The notes under the pieces are model-generated. The model ran no database searches. It was not told the origin of the DNA and saw only the letters and a program-made list of their open reading frames with translations. Below are positions 10,925 to 44,148 of a DNA stretch of 64,000 nucleotides, one piece after another. The position numbers and the translations under genes were made by a program. Position 1 is the first letter of the stretch. Each line of letters begins with the position of its first letter. Source of the stretch: a virus; IMG/VR virus record IMGVR_UViG_3300028827_000129, positions 32,001-96,000 of that record. One strand, written 5' to 3'.

Positions 10925-10927
10925 TTA

Positions 10928-11863: not shown

Positions 11864-11923
11864 AGTTATTTTTCTCCTTAATTATTCAAGTATTTAATTC
11901 TAATAACATAGTTATGTATTAGC

Positions 11924-12325: not shown

Positions 12326-12333
12326 CCATATGT

Positions 12334-12750
12334 TTAAGATCCATGAGTTTTCTCTCGGTCTCTGAAAATGTTGTCAAATTTATCCGCGAGTTTTGGATAA
12401 ACTTTTTTAAGTTCAGAGAGGTATTCATTACTTATGCTTTCCATATTGCCATTAATAATCTTATTGAAATCTTTTAACCACTTTTCTGGAACATTAAAAA
12501 CCCACATAGCGTATGTGGAGTCATATTCATCGTCGTAAGTGGAAACAAATCCATTCATATTACAAATGGTTTTATTTTCTTCTGCATATGTATTACGGTT
12601 ATTGCCGCCTGTTCTTGTATAAATTAATATTTTATTATCCTTAACGAAACAATCTCTAAAACGTGGGTATTCGTCTGGATGTTTTCCTAACATTGGCAAT
12701 ATAAAAAATGTTGCAGGATTAACACCTTTTAACATATGATACAAACTCAC
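12334..12750 (-). CDS. Hypothetical phage protein
   Basis: 138 aa; RFRDC, YTRTGGNNR, DDEYDSTYA. Confidence 0.65.
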   Translation of the reverse strand: MSLYHMLKGVNPATFFILPMLGKHPDEYPRFRDCFVKDNKILIYTRTGGNNRNTYAEENKTICNMNGFVSTYDDEYDSTYAMWVFNVPEKWLKDFNKIINGNMESISNEYLSELKKVYPKLADKFDNIFRDREKTHGS

Positions 12751-12760
12751 ATTTATCTCC

Positions 12761-13102
12761 TCATTTCAAAATTGGTTTAACTTTGTAGCCTTCTTTTTCT
12801 AAAATAGCTAACGTGGACTTAAATTCTTCTATGTGAATTTTACCTGGATGGTATTTTTCATACCTTATAGGCTCTCTTTCACAAAAAATGTCATCATTAG
12901 CATAAATCGGCTCTTCCATTTCTGCAGATACTGATAATACCCAATTAAAATAGACTTGTACCGGATTTTCAGCATTATATATGTCAAAAGTAACATCTGT
13001 AGGAGTCTGCCAAGTTTCTATTTCTTCTATTTGTTTGTCATATTTGTTAATGCTTGGTACAAATACTTCTCTTTCAGCAATAAATTGTATATTCATACTC
13101 AT
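12761..13102 (-). CDS. Hypothetical protein
   Basis: 113-aa ORF. Confidence 0.6.
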   Translation of the reverse strand: MSMNIQFIAEREVFVPSINKYDKQIEEIETWQTPTDVTFDIYNAENPVQVYFNWVLSVSAEMEEPIYANDDIFCEREPIRYEKYHPGKIHIEEFKSTLAILEKEGYKVKPILK

Positions 13103-13126
13103 GGTTTTTCACCTAGACAAAAATAA

Positions 13127-13217
13127 TGGTACCCCCGACAGGATTCGAACCTGTATTTGCCGCTTATCTAGCGTTACGGGGTATAAGCCCGCTGTTTTAC
13201 CATTAAACTACGGGGGC
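13127..13217 (-). tRNA. tRNA-Ile(UAU) with long variable arm
   Basis: GCCCCCG/CGGGGGT acceptor, GCGGG-CT-TAT-AC-CCCGT anticodon arm, ~21-nt variable region, TTCGAAT, ACCA. Confidence 0.85.
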
Positions 13218-13225
13218 ACAAATCA

Positions 13226-14095
13226 TCAGAAAATCAAACTACCCTTATCATCCCATTTCGAGTATAACTTGCAATCCGGACGTAATATAACATATTTATA
13301 AACGCGCTTAGGTATTGTACTCATACAATCATCGTCTATAACAACACCCATATCAAATATTGAGTATTTTGTATGACCATATTCTAATACTTCTAGTGCT
13401 CTTCCGTTATTACTTACATATGAAGATATATCCTTTACAAGTTTATCAGATGCTCTATTTTGCTTTATCCACTTATCTTTTACTGTATGTCCATTGCTAT
13501 ATAGAATTCTAAAAGTAACTTGGTTAGCGCCAATTTGCTTTGATCTTTTAAGAATTGTTTCAGGACTGTAATGATTAAAAGCTTTTGTTAGATTTAATGA
13601 TAACCGTAAATTGAATCGATATTTTTTAATCCTACTACATAAATAAGGAATATCAACCATAAGCTTATCTGGTGTACCATTAAAAATTTTATTTAGTTTA
13701 TTATCGAAGCTAGAAATAGACAAGCTTATAGTTGATACACCGACATGGTGTCTTAAAAAATATAAATATGCATCATTTAACATTACCCCTGTAGTTTGCA
13801 TTTCAATGATTTTGAAAGGATTTGACATTCCTTCTGAAACCATAGTTCCTAACATTCTTAAGAATTCTTTATTTTGTTGAGGCTCAGAATTTCCAGTAAT
13901 CATAACGGTATTACAACCGTTATCTCTGGCAAATTCTAGTCTTTTGATATAATCTTTTCTGTACAAATTCCAATATAAATTGTCTTTGTGTAACATGTCT
14001 TCATACTGCTCTTCGACCATTTGTGATACACAAAATTTACAGTTATTGACACATTTATTGTTAGGAACTACAATACTCAAACTTTGAATACGCAT
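13226..14095 (-). CDS. Radical SAM protein
   Basis: CxxxCxxC (CVNNCKFC), ITG.SEP. Confidence 0.85.
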   Translation of the reverse strand: MRIQSLSIVVPNNKCVNNCKFCVSQMVEEQYEDMLHKDNLYWNLYRKDYIKRLEFARDNGCNTVMITGNSEPQQNKEFLRMLGTMVSEGMSNPFKIIEMQTTGVMLNDAYLYFLRHHVGVSTISLSISSFDNKLNKIFNGTPDKLMVDIPYLCSRIKKYRFNLRLSLNLTKAFNHYSPETILKRSKQIGANQVTFRILYSNGHTVKDKWIKQNRASDKLVKDISSYVSNNGRALEVLEYGHTKYSIFDMGVVIDDDCMSTIPKRVYKYVILRPDCKLYSKWDDKGSLIF

Positions 14096-14113
14096 TTTAC
14101 TCTCCTAATTATT

Positions 14114-14413
14114 TTATTTATGAACATATCCTAAAGCATGCCAAATTTCATGCCCTAATACTTTTTGGGCATAACCGTTATCCCAATATCGTAAAGGAGG
14201 AGTAATAATTACATTAGATTCTCGCCAATAACACCCAGCTGCGTTTCCATTACATAAAAACGCTCTTTTTTCTGCCTTGTTTACAATCCAGATGTCTGCA
14301 TTTAAATGCTTAACTTTAATACCATCATCTATATTGTTATATGTTTGTAAAGTAGAACAAGAAGATGACAAAATAATTAAAAGCATATAGAAAAACAGAA
14401 TAATATGCTTCAT
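14114..14413 (-). CDS. Putative lipoprotein with HExxH metallopeptidase motif
   Basis: Start at MKHIILFF; hydrophobic signal ending SSSC; GHEIWH. Confidence 0.55.
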   Translation of the reverse strand: MKHIILFFYMLLIILSSSCSTLQTYNNIDDGIKVKHLNADIWIVNKAEKRAFLCNGNAAGCYWRESNVIITPPLRYWDNGYAQKVLGHEIWHALGYVHK

Positions 14414-14417
14414 ATAT

Positions 14418-15569
14418 TTATACAATCTCCTTTTTCTTAAATAAATATTTATAGATTTTATCTCCATTAGCTAAAAATTGTTTTCTTAATTCTGCAATAC
14501 CTTTATCTTTGTCTCTAATGTTTTTATTGTAAATATCAAAAAGTATAAATGTAAACAGTGTTTTGCGCTTCTTAGTAATATAAAGTGCAAACTCCTTTCT
14601 ATCTGTAAATCTTACGGCATTAAGCCAAGTATATTCAAGTTCAGCTAAGTGATAATTAACTTCCTTTTCAATTTTTTCATACAGATTTTTAACTTCTGGA
14701 AAATATGTTAATAATTCTTCTTTTTCGCCTTTTAATACAAATTGAAGAATATGTTTAACAGAAAATTGGTTATTTGGACCCTTTAAGGCTGCTAAAGCTA
14801 TATATTGTTTATTTTTTATTTTTATTCGTAATCCATTACAATCTTGTAGGACGAGACCTTCAAAGGTTACATCTTTTTTTGATACTTCATTGATAAATTC
14901 TATTACAGTTTTATAATTCGGAAAATTATAAACAGATGGTAATTTTGCACCTATCTTCTTAGCGATAAAATGGAAAACATTAAGAGGATACTCTTGTAAT
15001 GTATTGTTATCAATAACATTTAATAAATATGAAGTTGGTTTTCTATATTCTCGTACAACTTTATTTGCTAAAGAACAAAATTCAAAACAATAAGTGAGGT
15101 TAGGATTAAAAAACTTTTGACAATGATCAGCTAAAGAATCCCAAAATAATTCAGAGAATGTTTTTGGACTTTCAAAGCATTTATGATCACCAAAAGTTTG
15201 GCGTGTATTAGCAAACCATTGATTAAAAGCGTGATAAACAATTATTAACGTGCCGTCTTCTTTCGAGATAGATGTAAACGGTTTATTCCATACAAAAGCA
15301 TCAGTAATTGCTTTTGCCTCGCCAAAATTAAAAAATCTTGTAAAAGGTTTAGCTGCAACTGAAAAATTGTGTCCTTCTTTCTTTAATACAAGTCCTCTAC
15401 ACTCCATTACAATGGGATGTGTTTTAGGACTATTTAACTGATCATAATTAAGAATAAAAAGAGGATATGCTGGATGAGGAATTACTTTGATGGCAAATTG
15501 ATTAGTAAGATCTTCAAGAGAATGTTCTTCTAAATATTTTAGAACATTCAATTGATAGCTGGAATTCAT
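14418..15569 (-). CDS. T4 Rnl1-like RNA ligase
   Basis: ECRGLVL, PFTRFFN, KEDGT, FEF, EGLVL, KIKN..Y. Confidence 0.9.
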   Translation of the reverse strand: MNSSYQLNVLKYLEEHSLEDLTNQFAIKVIPHPAYPLFILNYDQLNSPKTHPIVMECRGLVLKKEGHNFSVAAKPFTRFFNFGEAKAITDAFVWNKPFTSISKEDGTLIIVYHAFNQWFANTRQTFGDHKCFESPKTFSELFWDSLADHCQKFFNPNLTYCFEFCSLANKVVREYRKPTSYLLNVIDNNTLQEYPLNVFHFIAKKIGAKLPSVYNFPNYKTVIEFINEVSKKDVTFEGLVLQDCNGLRIKIKNKQYIALAALKGPNNQFSVKHILQFVLKGEKEELLTYFPEVKNLYEKIEKEVNYHLAELEYTWLNAVRFTDRKEFALYITKKRKTLFTFILFDIYNKNIRDKDKGIAELRKQFLANGDKIYKYLFKKKEIV

Positions 15570-15840: not shown

Positions 15841-15854
15841 ACAGTAGTGGGCAG

Positions 15855-15928
15855 ATGATCGTATAGGAATTGAACCTATGTCTGCGCAATAATAATTGCG
15901 CTGCTCTATCCAGCTGAGCTAACGATCA
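15855..15928 (-). ncRNA. tRNA-like element (no CCA, abnormal 8-nt anticodon loop)
   Basis: TGATCGT/ACGATCA acceptor, D arm TAGCTCAGCTGGATAGAGC identical to tRNA-Arg at 21269, GCGCA-ATTATTAT-TGCGC, ATAGG-TTCAATT-CCTAT. Confidence 0.8.
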
Positions 15929-27266: not shown

Positions 27267-27959
27267 TTATGGGCACCACATCCACCAACGACTACGATGC
27301 CCAGGATAATCGAGGCAAAACCATTTTGTATTTTCGAACTTACCGTATTCATAATTGTGCCAGTGACCAAAAAACCAAAGAGACGGTTTATATTTTTCTA
27401 ACACATAGCTTAAAGCTATTCTATTACCATCGTTTAGTTTTTCGGTAGAACCTGTGCCATATACCTCGAATTGCGTTGGGCAAGTATGAGACACAACAAC
27501 ATCGACTCGTTTATGAGAAAGCATTAATTCAAATTCTTTATTGGTTATGTTTTCTTCAAAAAACCAATCATGACCTGGCGTTCGTAGATCTTTGTCTACC
27601 GAACTTGCACCACCAGCAAATAAAACTATTCTGCCGTCTGGTAGTCTTAACGTAGAGCCACGAGAACCATGAAAGACCTGATTATACATTTCATGTATAT
27701 TGCCGTCTTGTATTAAGTGTGGCAATTCTTCATGATTCCCGTCGCACCAGTAAATTTTGCTATTGCCTGGTTTGATACCCTTCAAACGCCATTTACTTGT
27801 ATGCCCATACAAAACAGGAGCTTTTATCTCCATTTTGGGCCACCAGCCAAAATCTCCACACTGCAAAACAATATCAGGTTGTTTTTTGGAGATAAGCTGA
27901 TTTAATTTTCCCCATTCGCCGTGCAAGTCACCAACAACAAGAATGCTGGCTTTAGACAT
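27267..27959 (-). CDS. Calcineurin-like metallophosphoesterase
   Basis: GDLHG, GDFG, GNHE, SHTCP, FGHWH. Confidence 0.9.
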   Translation of the reverse strand: MSKASILVVGDLHGEWGKLNQLISKKQPDIVLQCGDFGWWPKMEIKAPVLYGHTSKWRLKGIKPGNSKIYWCDGNHEELPHLIQDGNIHEMYNQVFHGSRGSTLRLPDGRIVLFAGGASSVDKDLRTPGHDWFFEENITNKEFELMLSHKRVDVVVSHTCPTQFEVYGTGSTEKLNDGNRIALSYVLEKYKPSLWFFGHWHNYEYGKFENTKWFCLDYPGHRSRWWMWCP

Positions 27960-27972
27960 TGTTTAACTCCTT

Positions 27973-28383
27973 TTAGTTTATGGTAGGATTCTCGGGGTTA
28001 AAGCTTTCAAGAAGAGTATTGATATTATCAGAAATATTGAAAGCTTGTTTGATAGCTTCATAGATGGTTGCGTACACTAAGAATGTGTACGTATCGGCAT
28101 AGGCTTGATATGCTGATTCGTCTGGAAGGTTAGACTCTTGGTTATCTTTTATAGCCAAGAGAAGCGTACCCTTAGCCAACATAGTAGTTTCTTTACAGCC
28201 TTTATCAGCAAGGCGTTTTGTCTGCTCTACAGCTTCGTTATAAAATTCTTGTTCTGAGATATGATTAACACCTCGTTTGAGCAATTCGACACTAGCAGCT
28301 CGAAGACTTCGCTTTGCATATGCACGAGCTGTAGCTAGCATAGTCATATGAACCTTATGCTTGTCATTTCCAGACAATATCAT
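27973..28383 (-). CDS. Hypothetical protein
   Basis: 136 aa, AGGAG RBS. Confidence 0.6.
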   Translation of the reverse strand: MILSGNDKHKVHMTMLATARAYAKRSLRAASVELLKRGVNHISEQEFYNEAVEQTKRLADKGCKETTMLAKGTLLLAIKDNQESNLPDESAYQAYADTYTFLVYATIYEAIKQAFNISDNINTLLESFNPENPTIN

Positions 28384-28595
28384 AATTAACTCCTACTTAA
28401 TTAGTTTTTAAATATGCAGTAGAATCTGCTTTGGGAGTAGCTTTTTTACAGCAAATCGGGCAGGGTCTAACTCGCACTTTGAAGTCGGACAAACCGCCGT
28501 CTACAGCTAGCGTAGTGAAGAGTTCGCTCCCACATTTGTAACAAATAGCTTCAATTTCGATGCTAATCATGGATGCCTCCTAGTGAAAGCTGAGT

Positions 28596-28717
28596 TGGTG
28601 GAGCCGGCAGGACTTGAACCTGCATGAAGAGCCTCTGCCATAGAGGCATGGCTCTTCTGCCGAATTGAACGGCCAAGATCGCCAACCAATAGCGTTTGCC
28701 AGTTCCGCCACGGCTCC
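28596..28717 (-). ncRNA. Enlarged 122-nt tRNA-like RNA with CCA end
   Basis: GGAGCCG/CGGCTCC-A-CCA, Leu-type D loop GGAACTGGCAAAC, GCAGG-TTCAAGT-CCTGC; 17-nt anticodon loop and ~40-nt variable arm. Confidence 0.8.
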
Positions 28718-28744
28718 ATATTAAACATATCAGATAAAACTCTT

Positions 28745-29161
28745 TTATATGATTTCAATGGGCGTTATAGCTTTAGCAAGACGAATATTGTCTGCTAATG
28801 GCACAGTCTTCACATAAACACCAGTTAACTGAGGGCCTATTGTTTGATATTCCATTGGCACATCTATCCAGTTACGTGCCCAGAAATCTTTAATAATACT
28901 TTGTGCTTCGGTATAGAATACTGGAATCCGCCGTGGAGTTTGTCTCCTAGGAAGAAGACCCTCTACTTTACAAGCTAATAACGCAGTGCCGTACAATGGT
29001 GAATATTTTAAGGGCGAGTCGTATAAGAAGATATATGAGTCACCAGGGGCTTCAGTACGTTCATTAAGTGCATAATAAAGTTGACAACCTTGAGATGTAA
29101 ATATCGAATGATAACCGATAGAATTCCGACAAACATATTTGTAGTAAAGTCTTTCACTCAT
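28745..29161 (-). CDS. Hypothetical protein
   Basis: 138-aa ORF. Confidence 0.55.
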   Translation of the reverse strand: MSERLYYKYVCRNSIGYHSIFTSQGCQLYYALNERTEAPGDSYIFLYDSPLKYSPLYGTALLACKVEGLLPRRQTPRRIPVFYTEAQSIIKDFWARNWIDVPMEYQTIGPQLTGVYVKTVPLADNIRLAKAITPIEII

Positions 29162-29163
29162 TA

Positions 29164-29385
29164 TTAGCCCCGTAACTTCAAACGTGTATCAATAGAAAAC
29201 TCTTGACCTTTTCCAATACCAATGCCAATGCCGCACAATGCATAACAATCCGGGCACATAATAGCCCATAAATCATGATATGTTTTGGCATTATAAAATT
29301 TTGTAAAATCTTCTAATGATCGTTCACATAGTTCACAATTTCCAAGAGGTCCAAGCCACTTACTAGAAGATTTATGTACTTTCAT
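29164..29385 (-). CDS. Small zinc-binding hypothetical protein
   Basis: CELC...WAIMCPDC...GIGIGKGQ. Confidence 0.6.
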   Translation of the reverse strand: MKVHKSSSKWLGPLGNCELCERSLEDFTKFYNAKTYHDLWAIMCPDCYALCGIGIGIGKGQEFSIDTRLKLRG

Positions 29386-29702
29386 TATTGTTTTTCCTTT
29401 ATTTCTTCAACTGCAAACCACACAGCAAACCAGATATTTTCTATTATGAAACTTATATCTTTTCCTGATTCATTTCCTGTAAACATGCAATAAATATAGT
29501 AAATGGCCCAATAAAGGGCCATTATTCGTATCCAGAGCATATCTCTATTCAGATTCAGACGAAGAAGGGAAGCATTTCAAACATTCTTCTTTCCTTGCGC
29601 CAACGGAAAAAATCGCGCAAGTAAAAAACCCAATAATGTAACCAATGCAAACACCAAAAAAGAAAAATTTCATCATCTTAAATAACCTCTTTTCCTCCAA
29701 CA

Positions 29703-30029
29703 TTAAATCTCATTTACTTTAATACCTAAGTTATTGAATATCCATTCTGCAACTAAATGTCTATGACAAAACTTATCAGATCTTTCCCAACATAGAAGAA
29801 CTCTACCTTTCAAATCATTATAGACTTTTTCTGGATCCAACATATCCAGAACTTCTTTATAGTAACGTTCGGTATATATTTGAACATTACCAATTTTTTT
29901 ATATTGGGAAAGAATGCTCCATGTAGGAGCTAATATTTTATAAGATTTTCCTCTAAATCCATATGGTGCTTTCAAAGCAATACTTACACCGTTAGATCCT
30001 TTATATTTTGCAAAGTATGATGTATTCAT
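29703..30029 (-). CDS. DUF488-like protein
   Basis: TSYFAK, LAP.W.IL, LLCWE...FCHRHLVAEW. Confidence 0.8.
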   Translation of the reverse strand: MNTSYFAKYKGSNGVSIALKAPYGFRGKSYKILAPTWSILSQYKKIGNVQIYTERYYKEVLDMLDPEKVYNDLKGRVLLCWERSDKFCHRHLVAEWIFNNLGIKVNEI

Positions 30030-30034
30030 TTTAT

Positions 30035-30589
30035 TTACCTTTCTGTCAAGAATTCCATAATCCAGTTAAAATGTTGTTTAATGCCAAGATTCCATACATC
30101 AATCCCAAGATATTTTGCTACCTTTATTGCAAATCCAGTTCCTCCGGTTTCATGCCCCCATGGAGTCCAGCATATTACCATACTACTTTTTTTGTTTAAA
30201 TCCTTCCCAAGCAATTGGTTTATGTTTCTACTCATAAGGGCATGATACTTTGGATTTGAAAAAATCGCGGGGGGATTAGGATGAAACCGTGAAATCATTT
30301 CATCTGCAAACTCACTTGGAAACTCTGGTACTATATATCCTTTATATACATTAGCTATTCTTTCATTATAACCATTCCATGGCAGATATATTTCTTTTTT
30401 ATTCTCCCCATCTATACATCCTTTTTCAAATGCTGTATCTGCCCCTATAGCTCCTCCTGATCTTAACATTAAACCTTTTTTTGACAATTTGTATCCCAAT
30501 TGATACATCATTTTTAATATTTCCTTTGGAGTTTGTCTTGAACCTATACCAGTATAAGCATTAACACGATCCACAACATTTACCTCCAT
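30035..30589 (-). CDS. SLOG/DprA-like Rossmannoid protein
   Basis: YTGIGSRQTP, LRSGGAIGAD.AFE, RN..Q..G, VICWTP, GGTG.A. Confidence 0.8.
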   Translation of the reverse strand: MEVNVVDRVNAYTGIGSRQTPKEILKMMYQLGYKLSKKGLMLRSGGAIGADTAFEKGCIDGENKKEIYLPWNGYNERIANVYKGYIVPEFPSEFADEMISRFHPNPPAIFSNPKYHALMSRNINQLLGKDLNKKSSMVICWTPWGHETGGTGFAIKVAKYLGIDVWNLGIKQHFNWIMEFLTER

Positions 30590-30773
30590 TTAATTTTCTT
30601 ACTGCAACAGCTTCCTCTTTTGTGGGAGGCTTTCCAAGATCTACAAGTTCTTCAGCGTTTCTCTTTGCTTCTTCCATATCATTAGCATATACAGTGTATG
30701 TATGATCTTCGATAGCGATTGTATCAGCATCGAGAAAAACTTGTTTTCTTATAACAATGTCAAATGCAGGCAT
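30561..30773 (-). CDS. Hypothetical protein
   Basis: 70 aa, AAGGAG RBS. Confidence 0.5.
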   Translation of the reverse strand: MPAFDIVIRKQVFLDADTIAIEDHTYTVYANDMEEAKRNAEELVDLGKPPTKEEAVAVRKLNGGKCCGSC

Positions 30774-30900
30774 AATTTCTCCTTTTATAGAGAAATGTTG
30801 CTATTATAAAAAATCGGGGGGAAAAATATTGAAAAATCAACGATTTTTGAAAAATCGCGGGAAAAGAAATATTTTAGAAGATTTAAAGAGAAATTTTATT

Positions 30901-32160
30901 TCAAAAACCAAAATCTATAACTTTATCATTATTATTTTCTTTTTCACAATAAAATCTTTTTAATTCTTTTGCATCATTAAAAGCTTTCCATGCAATAAAA
31001 TGCAATCTTTTATTAAAACCTTTAAGATATTTATACATATCTTTTGGCATCAATATTTTCTTTTTATCAATCAATCTTCTGAAAACATTATAAATATCTT
31101 TTGTTTTATCAATTGCTTCAGGCTGAAAATATGCAAACTCATCTTCAAAGTAAAACGGTTCTTCAAGTTTTGCTTTACTTCTCACAATTTCGTTATGATA
31201 ATATATAGCAAAACTCGCAATATTCAGCAGAGAGAAAATCGCCATATCAATATTAGCGTTAAAATCGCGCAGAAAATTAAATCTCTCTTCTGTATTCATT
31301 TCTTCAAGCCTTAACATTTCTTCTTGACTTATTCTTTTAATATTTTTTGGCCAAATAAGAAATAAACTTTTATCTTTATTCTCAACAATCAAATTCAAGA
31401 TAAATTTTCTTTCTCTTTCTGTAACAGTCTTAAGTTTCTTAATGAAAATCTCTTTATAATATTCTTTTCTTTCTTCGCAATATATAATATAGTTTTCTAT
31501 TTCTTCTTTGACGTCTCTTGAATACATATAAAGATTCGGATTTGAAAATCGGAAAGTTGGATCTTCATCTTCGCCATAAACATAATGTCTTTCAACAAAT
31601 TCCGCGCAACACATTTCTGTTTTATTCTTATATTTTCTGATATTGTTTATAACAATGTCTTCATCAACATCATTCGGATCATAAAACTCATCAAATATCG
31701 TTTTTGCCATTTCTTCTTCATTGAAGAAATGATTTATAGCCTTTAAAGAATTCTCTTCACATTCGCCTCTGATGCTCTTCTCTTTGACAAATCCCTCATT
31801 TTCAAGTTCTTCAATAGCTTTTCCGTAAATGACAATTTCGCGGGGCGAAAGAGAAATGTTATTCAAAAAGAAAGAGACAAAACCATTTTTATCTCTTCTT
31901 ATAACACATCCCAATTTTTCAGCATAATCCAAAAGTCTTTTACACTCTTCTTCCGTAAACTCTTCATCTTTATATTGTAGTTCATTCACCATTCTTATAT
32001 ACTGTAATCTTTTCGCTTCTCTTGAGTAATAATTTGGTTTAGCAAACGGATGCTCTTCTCCGGTAATTTCTGATATCGTTGCCTGTGGATAAATTCCTTG
32101 CATATCTTCAATCTCAAGATGAAGCTTCTTAGGAGTAATGTCATTCGGTAAAGTGCTCAT
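30901..32160 (-). CDS. Hypothetical Glu/Lys-rich protein
   Basis: 419 aa, GGAGG RBS. Confidence 0.7.
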   Translation of the reverse strand: MSTLPNDITPKKLHLEIEDMQGIYPQATISEITGEEHPFAKPNYYSREAKRLQYIRMVNELQYKDEEFTEEECKRLLDYAEKLGCVIRRDKNGFVSFFLNNISLSPREIVIYGKAIEELENEGFVKEKSIRGECEENSLKAINHFFNEEEMAKTIFDEFYDPNDVDEDIVINNIRKYKNKTEMCCAEFVERHYVYGEDEDPTFRFSNPNLYMYSRDVKEEIENYIIYCEERKEYYKEIFIKKLKTVTERERKFILNLIVENKDKSLFLIWPKNIKRISQEEMLRLEEMNTEERFNFLRDFNANIDMAIFSLLNIASFAIYYHNEIVRSKAKLEEPFYFEDEFAYFQPEAIDKTKDIYNVFRRLIDKKKILMPKDMYKYLKGFNKRLHFIAWKAFNDAKELKRFYCEKENNNDKVIDFGF

Positions 32161-32186
32161 TTTTGCCTCCTTTTTTATCTTAACAT

Positions 32187-32218
32187 AAAAAAAGCCGGCA
32201 ACGCAAAGCGTTGCCGGC
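32187..32218 (-). terminator. Rho-independent terminator
   Basis: GCCGGCAACGC hairpin followed by U-run on the minus strand. Confidence 0.75.
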
Positions 32219-32257
32219 CAAAGCCGAAGAAGGGAGAATATGTTTTAGTTTGCGTCA

Positions 32258-32821
32258 TTAAGACGCCAGCGGGAGAGAGCGGACCGTCAGTCCCATTGTG
32301 TACCACGTGTTCCGTCCGCCGTTCTTGTGCCTGATGAGGAATGCCTGAGCATCTTCCGGAATGTCAGGAGATGTCTTTGCATTGTTCTTGATGAAGTCTT
32401 TCGTGATATCAACGATTTCGCCATCGTGGTTCCTCTGAACCTTCCAGAGGCTGTATGCCCTGCTGTAGAGATTCTCGCCCGAAGCATCGACGAACGGAAG
32501 TGCCTGCTTGGGAATCCTTGCGCGGCCCTCTGCATCGGAAAGCACACGCAACAGCTTTTCCGTCTCATCCTTCACAGCCTGACTGAAGGACAGCGGGATG
32601 CGCTGCGTCTGAATCTCTCGCACATCGTCGAAGGGAAAGTCCTTCGTGAAGAAATTGCCTTCGTTGTCGATGATCTGCAGCTTTGCGATCTTTTCGTCAT
32701 CGTTTGTGGCGAGCAAAAGCCCGAACTCGCCGTCTTTGGTGACGCAGATCTTCTTCTTGGGAGTCTCTTCTTCTGTGATTTCTTCGACCTGCAGATTGAA
32801 AAGGTTGAGTCCGTGACGCAT
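32258..32821 (-). CDS. Hypothetical protein with GC-biased codons
   Basis: 187 aa, AGGAG RBS. Confidence 0.7.
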   Translation of the reverse strand: MRHGLNLFNLQVEEITEEETPKKKICVTKDGEFGLLLATNDDEKIAKLQIIDNEGNFFTKDFPFDDVREIQTQRIPLSFSQAVKDETEKLLRVLSDAEGRARIPKQALPFVDASGENLYSRAYSLWKVQRNHDGEIVDITKDFIKNNAKTSPDIPEDAQAFLIRHKNGGRNTWYTMGLTVRSLPLAS

Positions 32822-33093
32822 TTTAACGTCTCCTTTCTGAGAAAGAAATTATACTCTCAAAGAGAGCACTCAAAGATTTATAAGGCGCGAAGCGCCTAGC
32901 CTCTTGTTCGCCTTTTAAAGCCTCATTTTCTCCTTTCCCATACCTCATATTGGCCTTTTTTGCCGGGGAAAGAAATCTTGAATCCTGTTTTCATAAAAGG
33001 CTTACCCATCTTCTTTTCTCTCGCAATAAGAGACTTTTTCATCTTATGTAACTCTCTTAATAATTTCTTTTCAAGATTCATTGTTATCTCCTT

Positions 33094-33576
33094 TCAAAAT
33101 AAGTTTATTTGAATATTTTCTTTCTCTTTAAGTTCTTTTCTTACTTTCATAAGAATTTTACCCAAATAATTATACTTTTTCTTATTAATACATTTACTAC
33201 AAAGACAAGCGCCCCAATAATTATCGTGCCAATAATTACCTCCTATCAGAAGGTTTTCGCCTGTCATTAAAAGGTCTCTCTTGAGTGCTTTATGATTTAT
33301 TACTGATTTTGAAGTAAATTTTAACCGTACTAACTCCGTCATAATGCGGAGTTTATTTGCATTAAAGTCTTCTCTCATAATTACATATCGCCCGCGTTTT
33401 TTAGCCATTGCAGGCGTAACACAGCGCCGAATCTCACGCTTTTCTTTTTCATGCTTACACTTCATTGCCTGGTAAGCATGCTCTACAGTCTGCCATACAA
33501 GACCGTCATATATCAATCCTTTGCATTCAGCAAAGTTTGAGAGAAAGAAATATTTGCCTCTGAAAAAGCGTATCAT
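33094..33576 (-). CDS. NADAR (YbiA-like) family protein
   Basis: FLSNF, TVEHAYQAMK, AKKRGR, KF, LLMTG, WHDNYWG, LGKILMKVR. Confidence 0.9.
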   Translation of the reverse strand: MIRFFRGKYFFLSNFAECKGLIYDGLVWQTVEHAYQAMKCKHEKEKREIRRCVTPAMAKKRGRYVIMREDFNANKLRIMTELVRLKFTSKSVINHKALKRDLLMTGENLLIGGNYWHDNYWGACLCSKCINKKKYNYLGKILMKVRKELKEKENIQINLF

Positions 33577-39465: not shown

Positions 39466-40416
39466 TTAGTTACCTTCCCCCATGGGGCATTCACCGCTAG
39501 CGATGACCTCCTGGCAGTAAGGCGCATCGTTCCCGTATGTGCAAATGGCGATACGGTGATACTTGCACGTCTTCCCGCCCGCGAAGCCACGCTCCGGGTC
39601 GCCGTAGGAATCACGGAGCGGCCCGACAACGTAGCCATCAAGGAAGGCCTTGATGTGGTCGGGGCTCCCGGCCTGGCAGACCGTGCGGCCGTCCTGGAGG
39701 GTAGAAACGAAACAAACCCCCTCACGAGCCGCAGCCTCCGGCAACTCCGGAACGTGAATGTCCAGGAAGTTGGCGTAGCTAAGTACTTTGCCATCGAGAT
39801 CTTCCCGGTCTTCCGGATCAAAATAATGAACCAGAATCTTCCGAGACATTCTGATGGCGTCACGAGCCGCTTCCACGTCCCGAAGGATCTCCTCCTCCGA
39901 ACGGCCCTGGAACTTCGCCCTGGAACTGATGCGCCAGCGCATCAGTTCGTCGGGGTCCACCCCAGGACACTTCCCGCGATAAGCAGCGGCCAGACAGTGG
40001 TCCGCTGCCGCAACGAGCTTCAGATTCTCATGAAACTCGTTGCACCTCGGGTAGAGGAGCTTCAGAACCTGCCCCAGGGACGAGGCTTCCCAATACTTCT
40101 TGGGATCCTTCCCGTACCCAGGGTCCCCAGGCCGGTGGTGGTCGAGGAGCTTGCTGTCGTTGAGGCTAGCTGCCTCGCCAACAAACTCACACTCCACCCG
40201 AACGATCTGGGTCGTCGGGTCCTTTACGATCTCCGGGATCGTAGCCTCCGCCTTGTAAGCCTCGAAAGGCTTCACTCGGCAGAGGGTTTCGGCATCGCCA
40301 CAATTGCGAACGGCCGCGTAAGCCACCGGGATTCGGTGTGCTCGCAGCAGCTCTTCGATGGCTGCCATTTCGGGGTCAGGCGCCCCCAGAATGAAGAAGA
40401 GGGTGTTAGTACCCAT
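39466..40416 (-). CDS. DHH-like phosphoesterase candidate
   Basis: LGAPDPEM, VEC, LLDHH, SSLGQ, AADH. Confidence 0.55.
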   Translation of the reverse strand: MGTNTLFFILGAPDPEMAAIEELLRAHRIPVAYAAVRNCGDAETLCRVKPFEAYKAEATIPEIVKDPTTQIVRVECEFVGEAASLNDSKLLDHHRPGDPGYGKDPKKYWEASSLGQVLKLLYPRCNEFHENLKLVAAADHCLAAAYRGKCPGVDPDELMRWRISSRAKFQGRSEEEILRDVEAARDAIRMSRKILVHYFDPEDREDLDGKVLSYANFLDIHVPELPEAAAREGVCFVSTLQDGRTVCQAGSPDHIKAFLDGYVVGPLRDSYGDPERGFAGGKTCKYHRIAICTYGNDAPYCQEVIASGECPMGEGN

Positions 40417-40787
40417 ATGTACCTCCTTCTCGTGTGTGTTTTAGCCCCTTAGAGGGCCAGAGACCGAATTTCGGTCTCGGTGACTTTGCCACCCAAAACG
40501 GAGACAATCTCCTGGATGGCGAGGAGCCTTTCGCTCTGAGTAGGCACCAACTCCTTGAGAAGGTACCTGTAGAACTCAGAGTCTTTGCCGCTAAACCAAG
40601 CGGCCTTTATCGCCAATTTGGCGTTCATACTCTCAACACAGTCTGTATCAAGAGTATTGATGGCGTTAAGCAACTTGTCAGCCATGTTTGTATTAACCGT
40701 TACTCTTAAGGGCGTACCTGAGTACGCAAAAAACAACGGCTACGACAAGAATGTCGTAGCCGTTGCAGCCCTTAAGACTTTCGAGAA

Positions 40788-41099
40788 TTATCTGCACTGA
40801 ATCTGGATTTCGACTGCATCCTCGCCAATATGACTGAGGAGGGTTTCGAAATCCTTATCCCCAGGCTTAATGACGAAGCCGGCAATCGTCTGCCAGCTGA
40901 CGTTAACCTTCTTTAGAAGGTCTCTGCTTGCCTGAACACCAATGACTTTACCGTTGTCCTTGCAACGGATTATGACGTTCTGCCCCGTCGTATAAAGCAT
41001 GACTTTGTGGGAACGAACCCACAGGGCAGAACCGATTGCCGCCGTGCCAATGGCAACGATGGCGACTTTTTTGATAACATTCACAATCTTCTTACTCAT
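40788..41099 (-). CDS. Membrane-anchored protein, paralogue of 41190-41462
   Basis: Start at MSKKIV (GGAGG RBS); VIIRC...GKVIGVQ...LLKK...IGEDAVEI...C. Confidence 0.65.
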   Translation of the reverse strand: MSKKIVNVIKKVAIVAIGTAAIGSALWVRSHKVMLYTTGQNVIIRCKDNGKVIGVQASRDLLKKVNVSWQTIAGFVIKPGDKDFETLLSHIGEDAVEIQIQCR

Positions 41100-41189
41100 A
41101 ATGTCCTCCTTAAATCGGCGTACCTTATACGCCATTATTAGCTGAACTTAGATGTTCAGCTCTTTAGGGTTTTTGGAGATGTTTGTGGG

Positions 41190-41462
41190 TTATTTACAAT
41201 TAACCCTGATCTCCATAACGTCGTCTCCGACGTTTTTGACGAGGGTCGTGAACACCTCGTCTTCCGGCCGGATGATCAGTCCAAGGTAGGACTTCACTCC
41301 GGTCTTTTTGAGGAGTTCAGAGTCGGGCTGAATCCCGACAATTTCTCCTCCCTTTTCGCACCGAAAGATAACGGTGCGGTCGCTGGCGTAGAAGTCGAAC
41401 TTCCACGTCACGTACACCGAAATGGCGAGAAAAAGTGTCAGAACAACCAGAAACCTTTTCAT
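41190..41462 (-). CDS. Membrane-anchored protein, paralogue of 40788-41099
   Basis: VIFRC...GEIVGIQ...LLKK...VGDDVMEI...C. Confidence 0.65.
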   Translation of the reverse strand: MKRFLVVLTLFLAISVYVTWKFDFYASDRTVIFRCEKGGEIVGIQPDSELLKKTGVKSYLGLIIRPEDEVFTTLVKNVGDDVMEIRVNCK

Positions 41463-41542
41463 CTGTGTCCTCCTTAGTTTACCCTTTAAAAGGGTTGTTT
41501 GTCCTTTAATAAGGACTTTCTTTAGTCTTTTACGACTCCTCC

Positions 41543-42400
41543 TTAGAGGAGGTAGTCGTAAAAGACGAAGTAGGGCAGCTTGTCAAGTCGCCTCTTTCCC
41601 CCATCGGCGTACCCGACGATGGGGTATTCCGCCTCCTGGGCGTGGCCACCAAAGTATTCCCTGGTGACCAGGTGCCCAGACCAGGTATTATCCCCGTCAT
41701 ACCTGATCCGGAGGCGGAAGAGCTCCTCGTGCTGCGGCTTGTACAGCCGCTTTGCAATGAGCTCGACCTCCTCCCATTTCTTTTCCCCCTCCTCGTCGGA
41801 GAGGTTCCCTCCGAGGATGCCCTCCAGGATCTCTTCGATGAGACCCTTGACCCGGGCCATCGCCTCGGGAGTGTCCCACTCCCCTTCAGCGATGCCCAGC
41901 GAGGGCACCTCATCGAGGGAGATGACGTCACTCCCGCAGTCACGCGGGGTGACGTCCCCGAACCTCTCGACCTCGATGAGGTCGGGTTCCTCCCTCTTGT
42001 AGAGGAACTCTTTTTTGGGGTGGTCCTGGCGGAAGATCCGCTGGACCTCCCTGTCGGAGGAGACGAGGATCTCCCAGTCCTCGTCCCTGGGGTCAATAAT
42101 GACCGCCCTTCCGAGGATGCGGGAGATGGCCCTAACGGCCTTGATCTCCTCCTCCTTTCCAACCCGGAAGTCGAAAACGACCGGGTTGTGAGGGCTATCC
42201 TCGCCGAAGTACTCGGCGAGGTACCCCTCCGCCTCTTGAATGCCGAAGAGCTCATAGAGCTCCTCGGCCTTTGCCCGACTAACATGTCGGGACGCCTCGT
42301 GGATCGCCATTTCAAACTTTTCCATGGCTATCCTCCTTTCCCTTTGTTTTGCCGGTGAAACCGGCGTCTTTAGGCCTTGTAGAGGCCCTTTACCCGCCAA
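41543..42400 (-). CDS. Glu-rich acidic hypothetical protein (high-GC codons)
   Basis: Likely start at MEKFEM after GGAGG; GAG/CTC/GTC codon bias. Confidence 0.7.
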   Translation of the reverse strand: MAGKGPLQGLKTPVSPAKQRERRIAMEKFEMAIHEASRHVSRAKAEELYELFGIQEAEGYLAEYFGEDSPHNPVVFDFRVGKEEEIKAVRAISRILGRAVIIDPRDEDWEILVSSDREVQRIFRQDHPKKEFLYKREEPDLIEVERFGDVTPRDCGSDVISLDEVPSLGIAEGEWDTPEAMARVKGLIEEILEGILGGNLSDEEGEKKWEEVELIAKRLYKPQHEELFRLRIRYDGDNTWSGHLVTREYFGGHAQEAEYPIVGYADGGKRRLDKLPYFVFYDYLL

Positions 42401-42742
42401 ATGCGGGTATTGATCCTCTTAATGAGGATCTTTTCCCCCTTCTGACGGGGGTCATGGGAGGCCGTAGCCTCCCCCTTTTCGCGGGAGATCCACCTCCCGC
42501 CAATACGACAGGACCGGGCCTTCATTAGAAGCCCTCCCGGTCCTTTTCGCCCTGAAGAATCAGGGCGGTGAGGTCGTGGATGTTGGGGCCGCGGTCCCCC
42601 TTCATCCACATCTCGTACTGGGAAATCCAGTACTTCCTTTCGCCGCTCTTGAAGCGGTCCTTTCCGTACTCGCTGAGTACGGTTTTGAGAAATCTCTTTT
42701 TCGTCATCTTCTCTCTCCTTTCCTTCCTTTCCTTTTCCCGCT

Positions 42743-42898
42743 CTAGCGGGTGCTGTTGGTCAGAGTGACCATGTTCTGACCAACCTTTGCCCAGTCACTT
42801 TCAAACTGGGCTTTGGCGGCGTCGAACAGGCGACATCCGCCGTAAATCATGACAACCATCGCCACGGCGATGGCGATGGCCGTCTTCTTCACAGTCAT
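42743..42898 (-). CDS. Small membrane/lipoprotein-like ORF in frame with upstream gene
   Basis: MTVKKTAIAIAVAMVVMIYGGC...; 51 aa, below ORF-track cutoff. Confidence 0.45.
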   Translation of the reverse strand: MTVKKTAIAIAVAMVVMIYGGCRLFDAAKAQFESDWAKVGQNMVTLTNSTR

Positions 42899-42937
42899 CT
42901 TCTTCTTCGTGGTCTTCTTGATCGTCTTCTTTGTGGT

Positions 42938-43882
42938 CTACTTCTTCGCCGTGGTCTTCTTGGCCTTCTTCGCGGCCTTGAAGGCCGCGGCCATCGGGCC
43001 GCGGCCCTTAGCCGCGATGGCCCCGGCCGGTTTGGCCGGGGCCTTTTTGGCCATGACCCAGGCCACGGCCTCGACCACGAGCCGAGGCAACGGCTCGTGG
43101 CCGGAGAGGGCCTTCCTGGCCCCCTCCAAGGCCCTGACGTCGTGCCGCCAGAGGCGGCCGACGCCAAGGCCCTTCATGGCCTGGCGCTGGGCCTCCTTGG
43201 AGGCCCGGCGGGTTTCCTGCAGCCGGGCCTCCTTCTTCTTGAGGGAGGCCTCCTCCTCCAGGAGGCCCTCCATGGCCTCCTGGAGGTCCTCAAGGAGACC
43301 CAGGGCATCCGCCCCGGCCTCCCCGGCCTCCCGGATCTCGGCGATGGCCTTCCAGCCCTCGCCGAGGAGCCGGCGGATGTACCGCCGCCGGCGGCTGACC
43401 TCCTTCAGCCGCTTTCCGGCGACGTAACCGCGCCAGTAGGCGCGGTCCACCGACTCAAACCACGTCGCCGGCCTTTCGGCCAGCGACGTGATGTCAATGA
43501 GGGCCTTCTGGGTCTTCCTGGCCCAGAAGGCCTTCTCCTCGCCCCTCTTGAGGGCGAGGAGAAGGGCCCTCTCCTCCCGGTTAAGGGAGGAGAGGGCCTC
43601 CCTGAAGGCCTTCTCGCCCTTCTTGATGGCCGCCTCAAGGGCGGCCTCCTCCTCAGCGGACCGCTGAGGAGGAACGACCTTCTCCCCCTCCTCCTTCATC
43701 CGCACCTTCTCGGTACGGATAAAAGACTTCGGCCGCGGCTTGTAGGCCTCGGCCTTCTTGGCCTCGGCCTTGGCCTTCCTGGCCGAGGCCTCGGCTTTGC
43801 GGGCCTCGGCCCTCCTGGCCGAGGCCTCTTCCTTTGCCTGCTCCAGGAGCAGGCGCACATCGTAGAGGTCCATGGTCTTCAT
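42938..43882 (-). CDS. Ala/Lys/Glu-rich helical protein with histone-H1-like tail
   Basis: GGAGG RBS; C-terminal AKKAPAKP...AAKKAKKTTAKK. Confidence 0.7.
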   Translation of the reverse strand: MKTMDLYDVRLLLEQAKEEASARRAEARKAEASARKAKAEAKKAEAYKPRPKSFIRTEKVRMKEEGEKVVPPQRSAEEEAALEAAIKKGEKAFREALSSLNREERALLLALKRGEEKAFWARKTQKALIDITSLAERPATWFESVDRAYWRGYVAGKRLKEVSRRRRYIRRLLGEGWKAIAEIREAGEAGADALGLLEDLQEAMEGLLEEEASLKKKEARLQETRRASKEAQRQAMKGLGVGRLWRHDVRALEGARKALSGHEPLPRLVVEAVAWVMAKKAPAKPAGAIAAKGRGPMAAAFKAAKKAKKTTAKK

Positions 43883-44148
43883 GGCTCCTCCTTAAGCCCT
43901 ATCACGTAGCCAGGCAACGTCAAAGACGCCGTCCATGGCTTACGTTTCCCAGCGGTCGGGCTAAGCCGCTGGGCTCTTTCGGGCCTTATCGGCCCTTTTT
44001 CTGGCATCGTCTCAAGGACGTGCCAAAGAATCCCTCCTACAAAAGCAGAAGAGATTCTTTGGCACCCCGAATCACTTCAGGGATGCCGTGTGGGGGCGGG
44101 CCGTACAGCATCGGGGCGGCCCGCCCCCGGAGGTCCTCCGGTACCTGG

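What the first reader, a model, noticed from the sequence alone, without database searches (positions are those of the whole stretch)
28596..28717. 122-nt giant tRNA-like RNA with intact CCA end
Seen: perfect acceptor (GGAGCCG/CGGCUCC, A73, CCA), Leu-type D loop and canonical T arm. The stem AUUGG/UCAAU encloses a 17-nt loop (UUGGCGAUCUUGGCCGU, with UUGGC twice) and the variable arm is ~40 nt with its own long helix. Knowledge: bacterial LeuRS relies on A73 and elbow shape, not the anticodon. Inference: a chargeable non-decoding RNA, a decoy, or a precursor whose 10 extra loop nt are excised and religated by the phage ligases. A 37/38 excision would give a GGC anticodon on a body lacking the Ala G3-U70 pair.
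Basis: partly seen in the sequence, partly recalled or inferred. Interest (0 to 1): 0.7.

Follow-up and report, generated by a model that had tools for sequence, protein, structure and literature searches.

The report
Oversized non-decoding leucine-tRNA look-alike
An uncultured 170-kb phage carries a 122-base gene with the intact upper half of a leucine tRNA but two long hairpin rods where the codon-reading half should be. It belongs to a widespread class of phage tRNA look-alikes (type example: phage T5 'RNA1') whose function has never been explained.

Summary
Window 28596-28717 (minus strand) is a 122-nt tRNA-shaped gene: Rfam tRNA 40.8 bits against a cut-off of 29, and missed by default ARAGORN. 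The acceptor stem, A73-CCA, leucine-type D arm, T arm and elbow nucleotides are all intact.

The lower half is not a decoding half:
- The "17-nt loop" folds on into a 10-step rod capped by a 7-nt loop that lacks U33 and a purine at 37.
- The 40-nt variable region is a 6-nt linker plus a 12-bp rod.

No close homologue of this copy exists in the collections searched, so its own conservation is untested. The architecture does recur:
- One pattern scan of IMG/VR gave more than 113 oversized leucine-type tRNA look-alikes.
- A metagenome contig holds another 122-nt CCA-ending one with the same plan.
- Phage T5 RNA1 ("tRNA-like stable RNA with unknown functions") has the same plan, and its rod is kept by compensatory changes across T5-like phages.

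Excision of a 10-nt intron is not supported. Charging with leucine is possible but doubtful. The most likely reading is a processed, stable, non-decoding tRNA-framed RNA that acts as a mimic or display scaffold; its partner is unknown.

This scan has already flagged the same kind of gene on other phage DNA.

The parts
28596..28717 (-). Whole 122-nt tRNA-like RNA (nt 1 = 28717, nt 122 = 28596)
   Evidence: Rfam RF00005 at 40.8 bits; sequence; fold z = -4.06
28711..28717 (-). Acceptor stem, 5' strand (nt 1-7). Pairs 7/7 by Watson-Crick with 28600-28606
   Evidence: Read directly from the sequence; constrained fold
28692..28708 (-). D arm (nt 10-26): 3 bp plus a G-A pair and a 9-nt loop with A14, A15, G18, G19 and A21. 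Leucine type
   Evidence: Alignment with the phage's own tRNA-Leu(UAA) and tRNA-Leu(CAA)
28664..28690 (-). Anticodon-position rod (nt 28-54): 5 bp, a U-U mismatch, 4 bp, then a 7-nt cap at 28674-28680 with A at position 33 and U at position 37
   Evidence: Constrained and free folds
28658..28663 (-). 6-nt single-stranded linker (nt 55-60). In a rival fold it supplies the 3' strand of a 4-bp stem around a 7-nt loop holding CAA
   Evidence: the rival fold is -52.3 kcal/mol, the main fold -55.1
28626..28657 (-). Variable-arm rod (nt 61-92): 8 bp, a 1x2 internal loop, 4 bp and a 5-nt cap
   Evidence: This helix appears in the MFE, the centroid and every low-energy suboptimal fold
28607..28623 (-). 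T arm (nt 95-111): 5 bp and a 7-nt T loop. It is preceded by A-U, the U standing at position 48
28596..28606 (-). Acceptor stem 3' strand (28600-28606), discriminator A73 (28599) and encoded CCA (28596-28598)
   Evidence: Six of the seven other tRNA-type genes in the window also encode CCA
28745..29161 (-). Upstream ORF (138 aa, no family). It ends 27 nt before the RNA, on the same strand
28397..28570 (-). Downstream ORF (57 aa, four cysteines in two CxxC-like pairs). Its start codon lies 25 nt after the CCA, behind a strong ribosome-binding site
   Evidence: No promoter or terminator was found next to the RNA

Best explanation
This is a real gene for a non-decoding, tRNA-framed small RNA of the same kind as phage T5 RNA1.

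Shown:
- The upper half (acceptor stem, D arm, T arm, elbow nucleotides, A73-CCA) is a complete leucine-type tRNA frame.
- The lower half consists of two stable rods that cannot present an anticodon.
- The gene sits 27 nt after one ORF and 25 nt before the next, with no promoter or terminator of its own.
- The same design recurs in many phages. In T5-like phages and in one IMG/VR sub-family it is kept by compensatory base changes.

Inferred:
- The RNA is cut out of a polycistronic transcript by host RNase P at its 5' end and trimmed to its CCA at the 3' end.
- The tRNA frame makes it stable.
- It works as a molecular mimic or display scaffold. Either its tRNA-Leu-like top half and CCA end occupy a host tRNA-binding protein, or its rods are presented to a partner.

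My preferred partner is a defence effector aimed at tRNAs, because this phage invests heavily in tRNA repair. That last step is a guess. I put the chance that it is a real, processed, non-decoding RNA at about 0.55, and the decoy role specifically at about 0.25.
For: tRNA frame:
- Rfam tRNA at 40.8 bits.
- All 36 base pairs of the seven helical segments are standard pairs. Only two are G-U, and the single U-U mismatch lies between two of the segments.

Lower half:
- z = -3.81, and a single structure holds 56% of the ensemble.
- It is 51.5% G+C in a 35.7% G+C genome.
- It is not a repeated element of this genome.

Context:
- Operon-embedded, with no nearby promoter or terminator.
- CCA is encoded, as in the phage's true tRNAs.
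- The phage encodes RtcB, two further RNA ligases, a metallophosphoesterase, NAMPT with NUDIX, and NADAR.

The class in IMG/VR:
- It yielded 87 distinct sequences of 103-133 nt. Acceptor pairing is 7/7 in most, U8 and U48 are present in 100%, A73 in 79%, and the T stem is intact in 98%.
- Metagenome loci L152 and L154 hold a 122-nt, A73-CCA RNA with the same two-rod plan.

T5 RNA1:
- It has the leucine-type D loop, a rod starting at position 27, a variable hairpin, then a U before the T stem.
- It is found in 487 phage records.
- Six pairs of its rod show compensatory changes.

An IMG/VR sub-family keeps a pseudoknotted lower half: 96.5% of cells are paired against about 40% in slid controls, and 14 pairs changed on both sides.
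Against: - No homologue of this particular copy was found. Selection on its two rods is therefore untested, and recent origin could also explain the perfect helices.
- The lower halves of class members share no sequence. 'Same kind' therefore means same architecture, not shown common descent.
- Nothing links the RNA to any defence system or binding partner. The flanking proteins have no informative relatives.
- The phage already has two normal tRNA-Leu genes, so a third decaying copy is conceivable.
Confidence: 0.55

Rival explanations
1. It is a decaying third copy of tRNA-Leu. A paralogue lost its anticodon loop through a slippage-type duplication and picked up an insertion in its variable arm. 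It is now a functionless remnant that still looks like a tRNA.
For: - The phage has two intact tRNA-Leu genes with very similar D arms.
- The 5-nt word repeated in the anticodon-position loop could be a slippage scar.
- No homologue shows conservation.
- ARAGORN rejects it.
Against: - All 36 helix pairs, every elbow nucleotide and the A73-CCA end are intact, while both insertions happen to extend existing arms as near-perfect helices.
- G+C is kept at 51-58% in a 36% G+C genome.
- The genome is tightly packed around it.
- The same design recurs independently in many phages and is under structural selection where that can be tested.
Confidence: 0.18
2. It is a cis-acting processing or regulatory element. 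The tRNA shape serves only as an RNase P and 3'-trimming site that separates or stabilises the flanking mRNAs, or it modulates translation of the next gene. The excised RNA itself has no role.
For: - It sits 27 nt after one ORF and 25 nt before the next, with no promoter or terminator of its own.
- Eight nucleotides of the variable rod (28642-28649) are complementary to the ribosome-binding site of the next gene at 28573-28580 (read).
Against: - The phage's ordinary tRNAs are embedded in operons in the same way, so an ordinary tRNA would do this job. The rods remain unexplained.
- An 8-nt complement within this distance is expected about once in ten by chance (my estimate).
- T5 RNA1 is recorded as a stable RNA in its GenBank entry.
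Confidence: 0.1
3. It is leucylated by the host LeuRS and acts as an off-ribosome leucine carrier, or as a sink that ties up LeuRS, because it keeps the leucine identity set but cannot decode.
For: - A73, U8-A14, G18/G19, A15-U48 and the T loop are all present.
- The anticodon arm is dispensable for leucylation (PMC2377443).
- CCA is encoded.
- A73 occurs in 79% of the class.
Against: - Enlarging the variable arm markedly lowers kcat and affinity of a bacterial LeuRS (PMC2377443).
- 21% of class members lack A73, and T5 RNA1 has neither A73 nor CCA.
- The phage encodes no L/F-transferase, class Ia synthetase or CCA-adding enzyme that would point to such a pathway.
Confidence: 0.08
4. It is a precursor tRNA. 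Ten nucleotides of the 17-nt loop are cut out and the ends are joined by the phage's RNA ligases, which gives a decoding tRNA.
For: - The phage encodes RtcB and two other RNA ligases.
- ARAGORN in intron mode forces a tRNA-Ala(GGC) model.
- A few large viral contigs do carry tRNAs with 22-25-nt inserts directly after a correct anticodon (L088, L256).
Against: - There is no bulge-helix-bulge motif; the rod has only a 1x1 mismatch.
- The phage has no splicing endonuclease.
- No ribozyme or intron family matches at E <= 1.
- The ARAGORN model needs a 34-nt intron and a mismatched stem.
- Every 10-nt excision gives GGC or GCC on a leucine body without G3-U70, and the 40-nt variable region would remain.
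Confidence: 0.04

Closest known systems
Phage T5 RNA1 (AY543070, 30501-30644; annotated 'tRNA-like stable RNA with unknown functions')
   Same: - Leucine-type D arm and loop, standard T arm and paired acceptor stem.
- A long rod starts exactly at position 27 in place of the anticodon arm.
- A separate variable hairpin is followed by a U just before the T stem.
- It lies among tRNA genes and small ORFs on the same strand.
- It is conserved by compensatory changes.
   Different: - The lower halves share no sequence similarity.
- In T5 RNA1 the rod is longer (about 60 nt) and the variable hairpin shorter (6 bp).
- T5 RNA1 has no A73 and no encoded CCA, and its acceptor stem has 6-7 pairs with a mismatch.
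- Common descent is not shown.
Phage T4 species 1 and species 2 RNAs (rnaC, rnaD)
   Same: - Oversized (139 and 119 nt) stable RNAs encoded in a phage tRNA cluster.
- rnaC ends in a tRNA-type T arm.
- Their roles are unknown (PMC3014915; PMC9697503).
   Different: - No leucine-type D arm; the D-loop motif is absent from the whole T4 genome.
- The overall folds differ.
Bacterial and phage class II tRNA-Leu
   Same: - Acceptor stem, D arm, T arm, A73 and the A15-U48 pair.
- Its first 26 nt are shared, through a 26-nt pattern with three degenerate positions, with tRNA-Leu(UAA) of some Myxococcales genomes; in the two read they differ by one D-loop base.
- It is close to the phage's own tRNA-Leu genes.
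   Different: - No 7-nt anticodon loop with U33 and a purine at 37 on a 5-bp stem.
- No leucine anticodon in the favoured fold.
- The variable region is 40 nt instead of about 13-16.
tmRNA (tRNA-like domain plus a non-tRNA middle)
   Same: The 5' and 3' ends form a tRNA-like top half ending in CCA, with foreign sequence in between. The Rfam tmRNA model aligns to the ends only (23 bits).
   Different: - The score is below the gathering score of 47.
- Position 3:70 is A-U, not G-U.
- It has a full D arm, no tag reading frame, and is a third of the size.
Engineered 'tRNA scaffolds' for expressing recombinant RNA (recalled from my own knowledge, not checked here)
   Same: A tRNA frame carries a foreign structured insert in place of the anticodon arm, and the frame gives correct processing and stability.
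   Different: Those are laboratory constructs. A natural counterpart is only a hypothesis here, suggested by near-identical frames carrying unrelated middles in IMG/VR.

Membership tests
tRNA (Rfam RF00005) | Covariance-model score above the curated cut-off | tested here: met
   40.8 bits against 29, with model positions 1-71 matched
tRNA (Rfam RF00005) | 5-bp anticodon stem closing a 7-nt loop with U33 and a purine at 37 | tested here: not met
   The 5-bp stem encloses 17 nt. Folded further, the 7-nt cap sits on a 10-step rod and has A at position 33 and U at position 37. ARAGORN makes no call.
Bacterial class II tRNA-Leu | Discriminator A73 and the tertiary core (U8-A14, G18/G19, A15-U48, T loop) | tested here: met
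   Read from the sequence. The list of determinants comes from PMC2377443.
Bacterial class II tRNA-Leu | A leucine anticodon (NAG or NAA) in a standard loop | tested here: not met
   The favoured fold has none. A rival fold, 2.8 kcal/mol weaker, shows CAA in a 7-nt loop but with U at position 37 and a 17-nt unpaired 5' spacer.
Bacterial class II tRNA-Leu | Variable arm of ordinary class II size | tested here: not met
   40 nt, against about 14 in the phage's own tRNA-Leu genes
Bacterial class II tRNA-Leu | Charged by LeuRS | not testable with these tools
   Needs an aminoacylation assay. PMC2377443 reports that larger variable arms reduce activity.
T5 RNA1-type tRNA-like stable RNA | Leucine-type D arm, T arm and paired acceptor stem framing an oversized middle | tested here: met
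T5 RNA1-type tRNA-like stable RNA | A rod from position 27 replaces the anticodon arm, followed by a variable hairpin and a U before the T stem | tested here: met
   Folds of both RNAs
T5 RNA1-type tRNA-like stable RNA | Sequence homology of the lower half | tested here: not met
   No blastn match to any phage record beyond the T arm. Lower halves across the class are no more alike than shuffled sequence.
T5 RNA1-type tRNA-like stable RNA | Accumulates as a stable RNA during infection | not testable with these tools
Intron-containing pre-tRNA (protein-spliced) | Bulge-helix-bulge motif at the exon-intron junctions | tested here: not met
   The rod has one 1x1 mismatch and no 3-nt bulges.
Intron-containing pre-tRNA (protein-spliced) | A splicing endonuclease is available | tested here: inconclusive
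   PF01974 is absent from the complete phage genome. The host is unknown.
tmRNA | G3-U70, a tag reading frame, and a model score above the cut-off | tested here: not met
   A3-U70, no tag reading frame found, and 23 bits against 47. ARAGORN's tmRNA search found nothing.
Bacterial Y RNA (YrlA-like tRNA mimic) | A Ro/TROVE partner gene and a Ro-binding stem formed by the ends | tested here: not met
   The genome has no TROVE domain. The ends form a tRNA acceptor stem with CCA, and no Rfam Y RNA family matches.

The most novel reading that the evidence does not exclude
Phages use the tRNA top half as a natural chassis that secures processing, stability and perhaps charging for interchangeable RNA 'cargo'. 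This copy's two rods together with its class II body and CCA end would then form a sponge for a host anti-phage effector that attacks class II tRNAs or tRNA 3' ends, for example a nucleotidyltransferase or nuclease toxin. If so, the function of T5 RNA1 and T4 RNAC/RNAD, unexplained for some fifty years, would be counter-defence by tRNA mimicry.
Probability: 0.12. Interest if true: 0.85.

Novelty: new member of a known kind. Interest (0 to 1): 0.45.

Why it matters
Oversized tRNA-like stable RNAs have been known in T4 and T5 since the 1970s and 80s, and their roles are still unknown (PMC3014915; T5 GenBank record).

This gene shows that the design is not a curiosity of coliphages. It turns up in an unrelated uncultured phage, and the searches made here show hundreds of unannotated look-alikes in viral metagenomes. 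Their tRNA frames are near-identical while their middles are unrelated.

That pattern fits a functional module under fast diversification or exchange, and it makes the question testable in T5, which is easy to work with in the laboratory.

On the practical side, default ARAGORN misses this gene, and most T5-like phage records leave RNA1 unannotated or mislabel it.

Tried and rejected
Searches for close relatives of this copy all came back empty:
- blastn of the locus and of the RNA against 50,697 phage records matched only T-arm fragments.
- Exact and degenerate patterns of its 5' and 3' halves found nothing in IMG/VR.
- The upstream protein has no relatives in IMG/VR or among 5.8 billion proteins.
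- Five large contigs related through the portal protein (35-39% identity) contain no tRNA at all.
- A pattern for the variable rod hit only an unrelated coding hairpin in one phage group.

Other lines that led nowhere:
- The insert is not a repeated element in the genome.
- Neighbour genes across 87 class members: no shared neighbour family, at most 10 loci per family.
- The flanking proteins gave no Pfam or PHROG family and only weak Atlas leads: a PD-(D/E)XK-like fold for the 136-aa protein, and viral hypothetical proteins for the 138-aa protein.
- The T5 ORF next to RNA1 is not related to the 57-aa ORF here.

Readings considered and rejected:
- tmRNA, Y RNA and protein-spliced intron (see the membership test).
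- tRNA-Sec or allo-tRNA: the arms are 7/5, the D stem is short and there is no UCA.
- An amber suppressor read from the variable-rod cap: this appears only as an ARAGORN model at a 70% threshold, with a broken acceptor stem.

Full report
THE OBJECT

Read on the minus strand, window 28596-28717 is a 122-nt RNA gene. Rfam's tRNA model matches it end to end at 40.8 bits (cut-off 29; E = 3.4e-5 for the 64-kb window). ARAGORN with default settings does not report it.

The window is part of a complete 170,083-bp IMG/VR phage genome with direct terminal repeats. The genome is 35.7% G+C. Its large terminase is only 30-37% identical to those of cultured phages, so it belongs to a new lineage.

ANATOMY

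The upper half is a flawless tRNA:
- a 7-bp Watson-Crick acceptor stem;
- U8;
- a D arm with a 3-bp stem plus a G-A pair and a 9-nt loop carrying A14, A15, G18, G19 and A21, very like the phage's own tRNA-Leu(UAA) and tRNA-Leu(CAA);
- a 5-bp T stem with a standard T loop;
- U at position 48, opposite A15;
- A73 and an encoded CCA.

The lower half is not a tRNA. After the usual 5-bp stem at positions 27-31/39-43, the enclosed 17 nt pair further. A U-U mismatch is followed by 4 bp and a 7-nt cap without U33 or a purine at 37. This form is worth -55.1 kcal/mol, against -45.7 with the loop left open.

A 6-nt linker then leads into an 8 bp + 4 bp hairpin with a 5-nt cap. Two more nucleotides come before the T stem.

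A weaker rival fold (-52.3 kcal/mol) pairs the linker with part of the first rod. It shows CAA in a 7-nt loop, but with U at position 37 and 17 unpaired nucleotides upstream. The phage already has a normal tRNA-Leu(CAA).

The lower 68 nt fold far better than shuffles (z = -3.81, 0 of 200), and one structure holds 56% of the ensemble. For the whole RNA, z = -4.06.

All 36 pairs are standard pairs, and only two of them are G-U. The lower half is 51.5% G+C. None of it is repeated elsewhere in the genome.

CONTEXT

The gene lies 27 nt after a 138-aa ORF and 25 nt before a 57-aa ORF rich in cysteines, all on the minus strand. No promoter-like or terminator-like site lies beside it.

It must therefore be cut out of a longer transcript. 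The same holds for the phage's eight ordinary tRNA-type genes, which are scattered among ORFs on the same strand. Six of the seven in the window also encode CCA.

The same arm of the genome encodes:
- RtcB, an Rnl1-like ligase and a third RNA ligase (PF09414);
- a calcineurin-type phosphoesterase;
- NAMPT with a NUDIX protein;
- NADAR.

This is the equipment of a phage whose hosts attack tRNA and NAD. The genome holds no splicing endonuclease, Ro/TROVE protein, CCA-adding enzyme, L/F-transferase or class Ia synthetase.

RELATIVES OF THIS COPY

None were found:
- DNA searches of phage records found no homologue; only T-arm-sized fragments matched.
- Exact and degenerate patterns in IMG/VR returned nothing.
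- The upstream protein has no relatives.
- The nearest contigs by portal protein carry no tRNAs.

Selection on this copy's rods therefore cannot be measured. That is the main weakness of any functional claim.

THE KIND IS COMMON

I scanned IMG/VR with a leucine-type D-loop motif, a gap of 55-85 nt (normal tRNA-Leu has about 38) and a T-loop motif.

Among the 80 loci returned there are 87 distinct sequences of 103-133 nt (excluding 3' trailers):
- most have 7/7 acceptor pairing;
- U8 and U48 are present in all;
- 98% have an intact T stem;
- 79% have A73.

None of these features was forced by the pattern.

About a third keep a 5-bp stem at the anticodon position around a loop of abnormal size, followed by a 30-55-nt variable domain. 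That is the giant's plan.

A narrower scan of metagenome contigs found L152 and L154. They hold a 122-nt RNA with A73-CCA, a long rod at the anticodon position and a long variable hairpin.

Rfam assigns these RNAs to tRNA or to nothing. They have no common neighbour gene.

The phenomenon is not confined to leucine-type bodies. A few members of both sets look like true tRNAs with an insert directly after a correct anticodon (L088, L256, L166). Most do not.

ARE SUCH RNAS FUNCTIONAL?

Two tests say yes for the kind.

First, a seven-member IMG/VR sub-family has a stem at position 27, an inner hairpin and a pseudoknot in place of the lower half:
- 96.5% of pair cells are standard pairs, against 37-42% when partners are slid.
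- 14 of 29 pairs changed on both sides.
- No shuffle reached the observed covariation.

Second, phage T5 RNA1, annotated in AY543070 as a 'tRNA-like stable RNA with unknown functions', has the same design:
- It carries the leucine-type D-loop motif, a T arm and an acceptor stem.
- A long rod begins at position 27, followed by a 6-bp variable hairpin and G-U before the T stem.
- It occurs in 487 phage records down to 74% identity and is mostly unannotated.
- In eight diverged copies, six pairs of the rod show compensatory changes, while the variable hairpin and the rod's cap are invariant.

T4 rnaC and rnaD are looser analogues. Their roles are explicitly unknown (PMC3014915; PMC9697503).

A STRIKING CLASS-LEVEL PATTERN

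Eighteen distinct IMG/VR sequences share one acceptor stem and T arm, and their top halves are 94% identical. Their 52-79-nt middles are no more alike than shuffled sequence (0.538 against 0.532).

So a conserved tRNA frame carries unrelated 'cargo'. This suggests either very fast diversification or exchange of the middle. It fits the idea that the frame supplies processing and stability while the middle supplies specificity.

WHAT THE GIANT PROBABLY DOES

Shown:
- a tRNA frame;
- a non-decoding lower half;
- an operon-embedded position;
- membership by architecture in a recurrent kind that is selectively maintained elsewhere.

Inferred:
- excision by RNase P and 3' trimming to CCA;
- a stable L-shaped RNA with two projecting rods;
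- action as a mimic or scaffold.

Five extra stacked steps in the anticodon arm would move the cap well beyond where the decoding site expects an anticodon. With no U33 or purine 37 either, decoding can be set aside.

Charging is open. Bacterial LeuRS needs A73, the U8-A14, G18-U55 and G19-C56 core, and the variable-arm orientation set by U48. It does not need the anticodon arm. But enlarging the variable arm cuts activity (PMC2377443).

Phage tRNAs are known to counter defence nucleases that read the anticodon stem-loop (PMC11464382; PMC10264068). A non-cleavable mimic that soaks up such an effector is therefore my preferred guess. No datum here ties this RNA to any effector.

The decoy or non-decoding reading survives.

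The intron reading does not:
- no bulge-helix-bulge motif;
- no endonuclease;
- no ribozyme match;
- ARAGORN's intron model needs a 34-nt intron and a mismatched stem;
- any 10-nt excision gives a GGC or GCC anticodon on a leucine body that still has a 40-nt variable region.

EARLIER NOTES OF THIS SCAN

The same stretch was noted once more in another window. Follow-ups on other phage genomes reported oversized leucine-type tRNA look-alikes and named T4 rnaC/rnaD and T5 RNA1 as the closest known. I took T5 RNA1 as a lead from those notes and tested it myself.

VERDICT

This is a real and well-described feature. It is a new member of a known but unexplained kind. Its individual function is unproven. 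Interest is moderate for this copy and higher for the class.

Noticed in passing
window 13127-13217 (-): tRNA-Ile(UAU) of 91 nt: a class I D arm and a normal anticodon loop, but a 21-nt variable region with a 4-bp hairpin. That is unusual for an isoleucine tRNA (Rfam 67.9 bits).
   Followed up: partly
window 15854-15928 (-): A tRNA-like gene without CCA whose anticodon loop has 8 (or 6) nt. ARAGORN labels it 'tRNA-???'; Rfam gives 53.5 bits.
   Followed up: no
window 4644-15569 (-) and 27267-33576 (-): Three RNA ligase genes (RtcB 7377-8534, PF09414 9906-10532, Rnl1-like 14418-15569), NAMPT 4644-5981 with NUDIX 6020-6925, a metallophosphoesterase 27267-27959, and NADAR 33094-33576. Together these form a large RNA-repair and NAD-rescue set.
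   Followed up: partly
IMG/VR loci among L034-L146 whose acceptor stem begins AGTCAGG: Eighteen distinct oversized leucine-type tRNA look-alikes have top halves that are 94% identical, while their 52-79-nt middles are as dissimilar as shuffled sequence. A conserved frame carries hypervariable cargo.
   Followed up: partly
IMG/VR loci L055, L058, L063, L079, L141, L046, L060 (alignment A2): A sub-family in which the lower half of a leucine-type tRNA frame is replaced by a stem, a hairpin and a pseudoknot. Compensatory changes support all three helices.
   Followed up: yes
IMG/VR loci L155-L261 (class I D-arm scan): Many oversized tRNA look-alikes with a class I frame carry a hairpin followed by a shared 7-nt motif (ACAGCAA) in the middle. 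This looks like a separate conserved family.
   Followed up: no
L088:2396-2504 (+), L256 and L166: tRNA-Leu(UAA) and tRNA-Lys(UUU) genes with a correct anticodon followed directly by a 21-25-nt insert. They look intron-like. L166 comes from a giant-virus contig and L088 from a 225-kb contig.
   Followed up: no
window 28642-28649 and 28573-28580 (-): Eight nucleotides of the variable rod are complementary (one pair is G-U) to the ribosome-binding site of the next gene, about 60 nt downstream. By my estimate this would arise by chance about one time in ten.
   Followed up: no
L149:6996-7080 and L151: The giant's first 26 nt (acceptor strand plus D arm) recur in tRNA-Leu(UAA) genes of three Myxococcales-type genomes through a pattern with three degenerate positions; the two read differ by one D-loop base. 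This is probably coincidence, given the phage's 36% G+C.
   Followed up: partly
window 40000-44000: G+C rises to 53-62% in a phage that averages 36%, with overlapping long ORFs on both strands. This may be a foreign insert.
   Followed up: no
phage records H72-H95 (T5-like phages): T5 RNA1 is present in 487 records but almost never annotated. It is sometimes overlaid by a 'hypothetical protein' and once labelled tRNA-Phe.
   Followed up: partly
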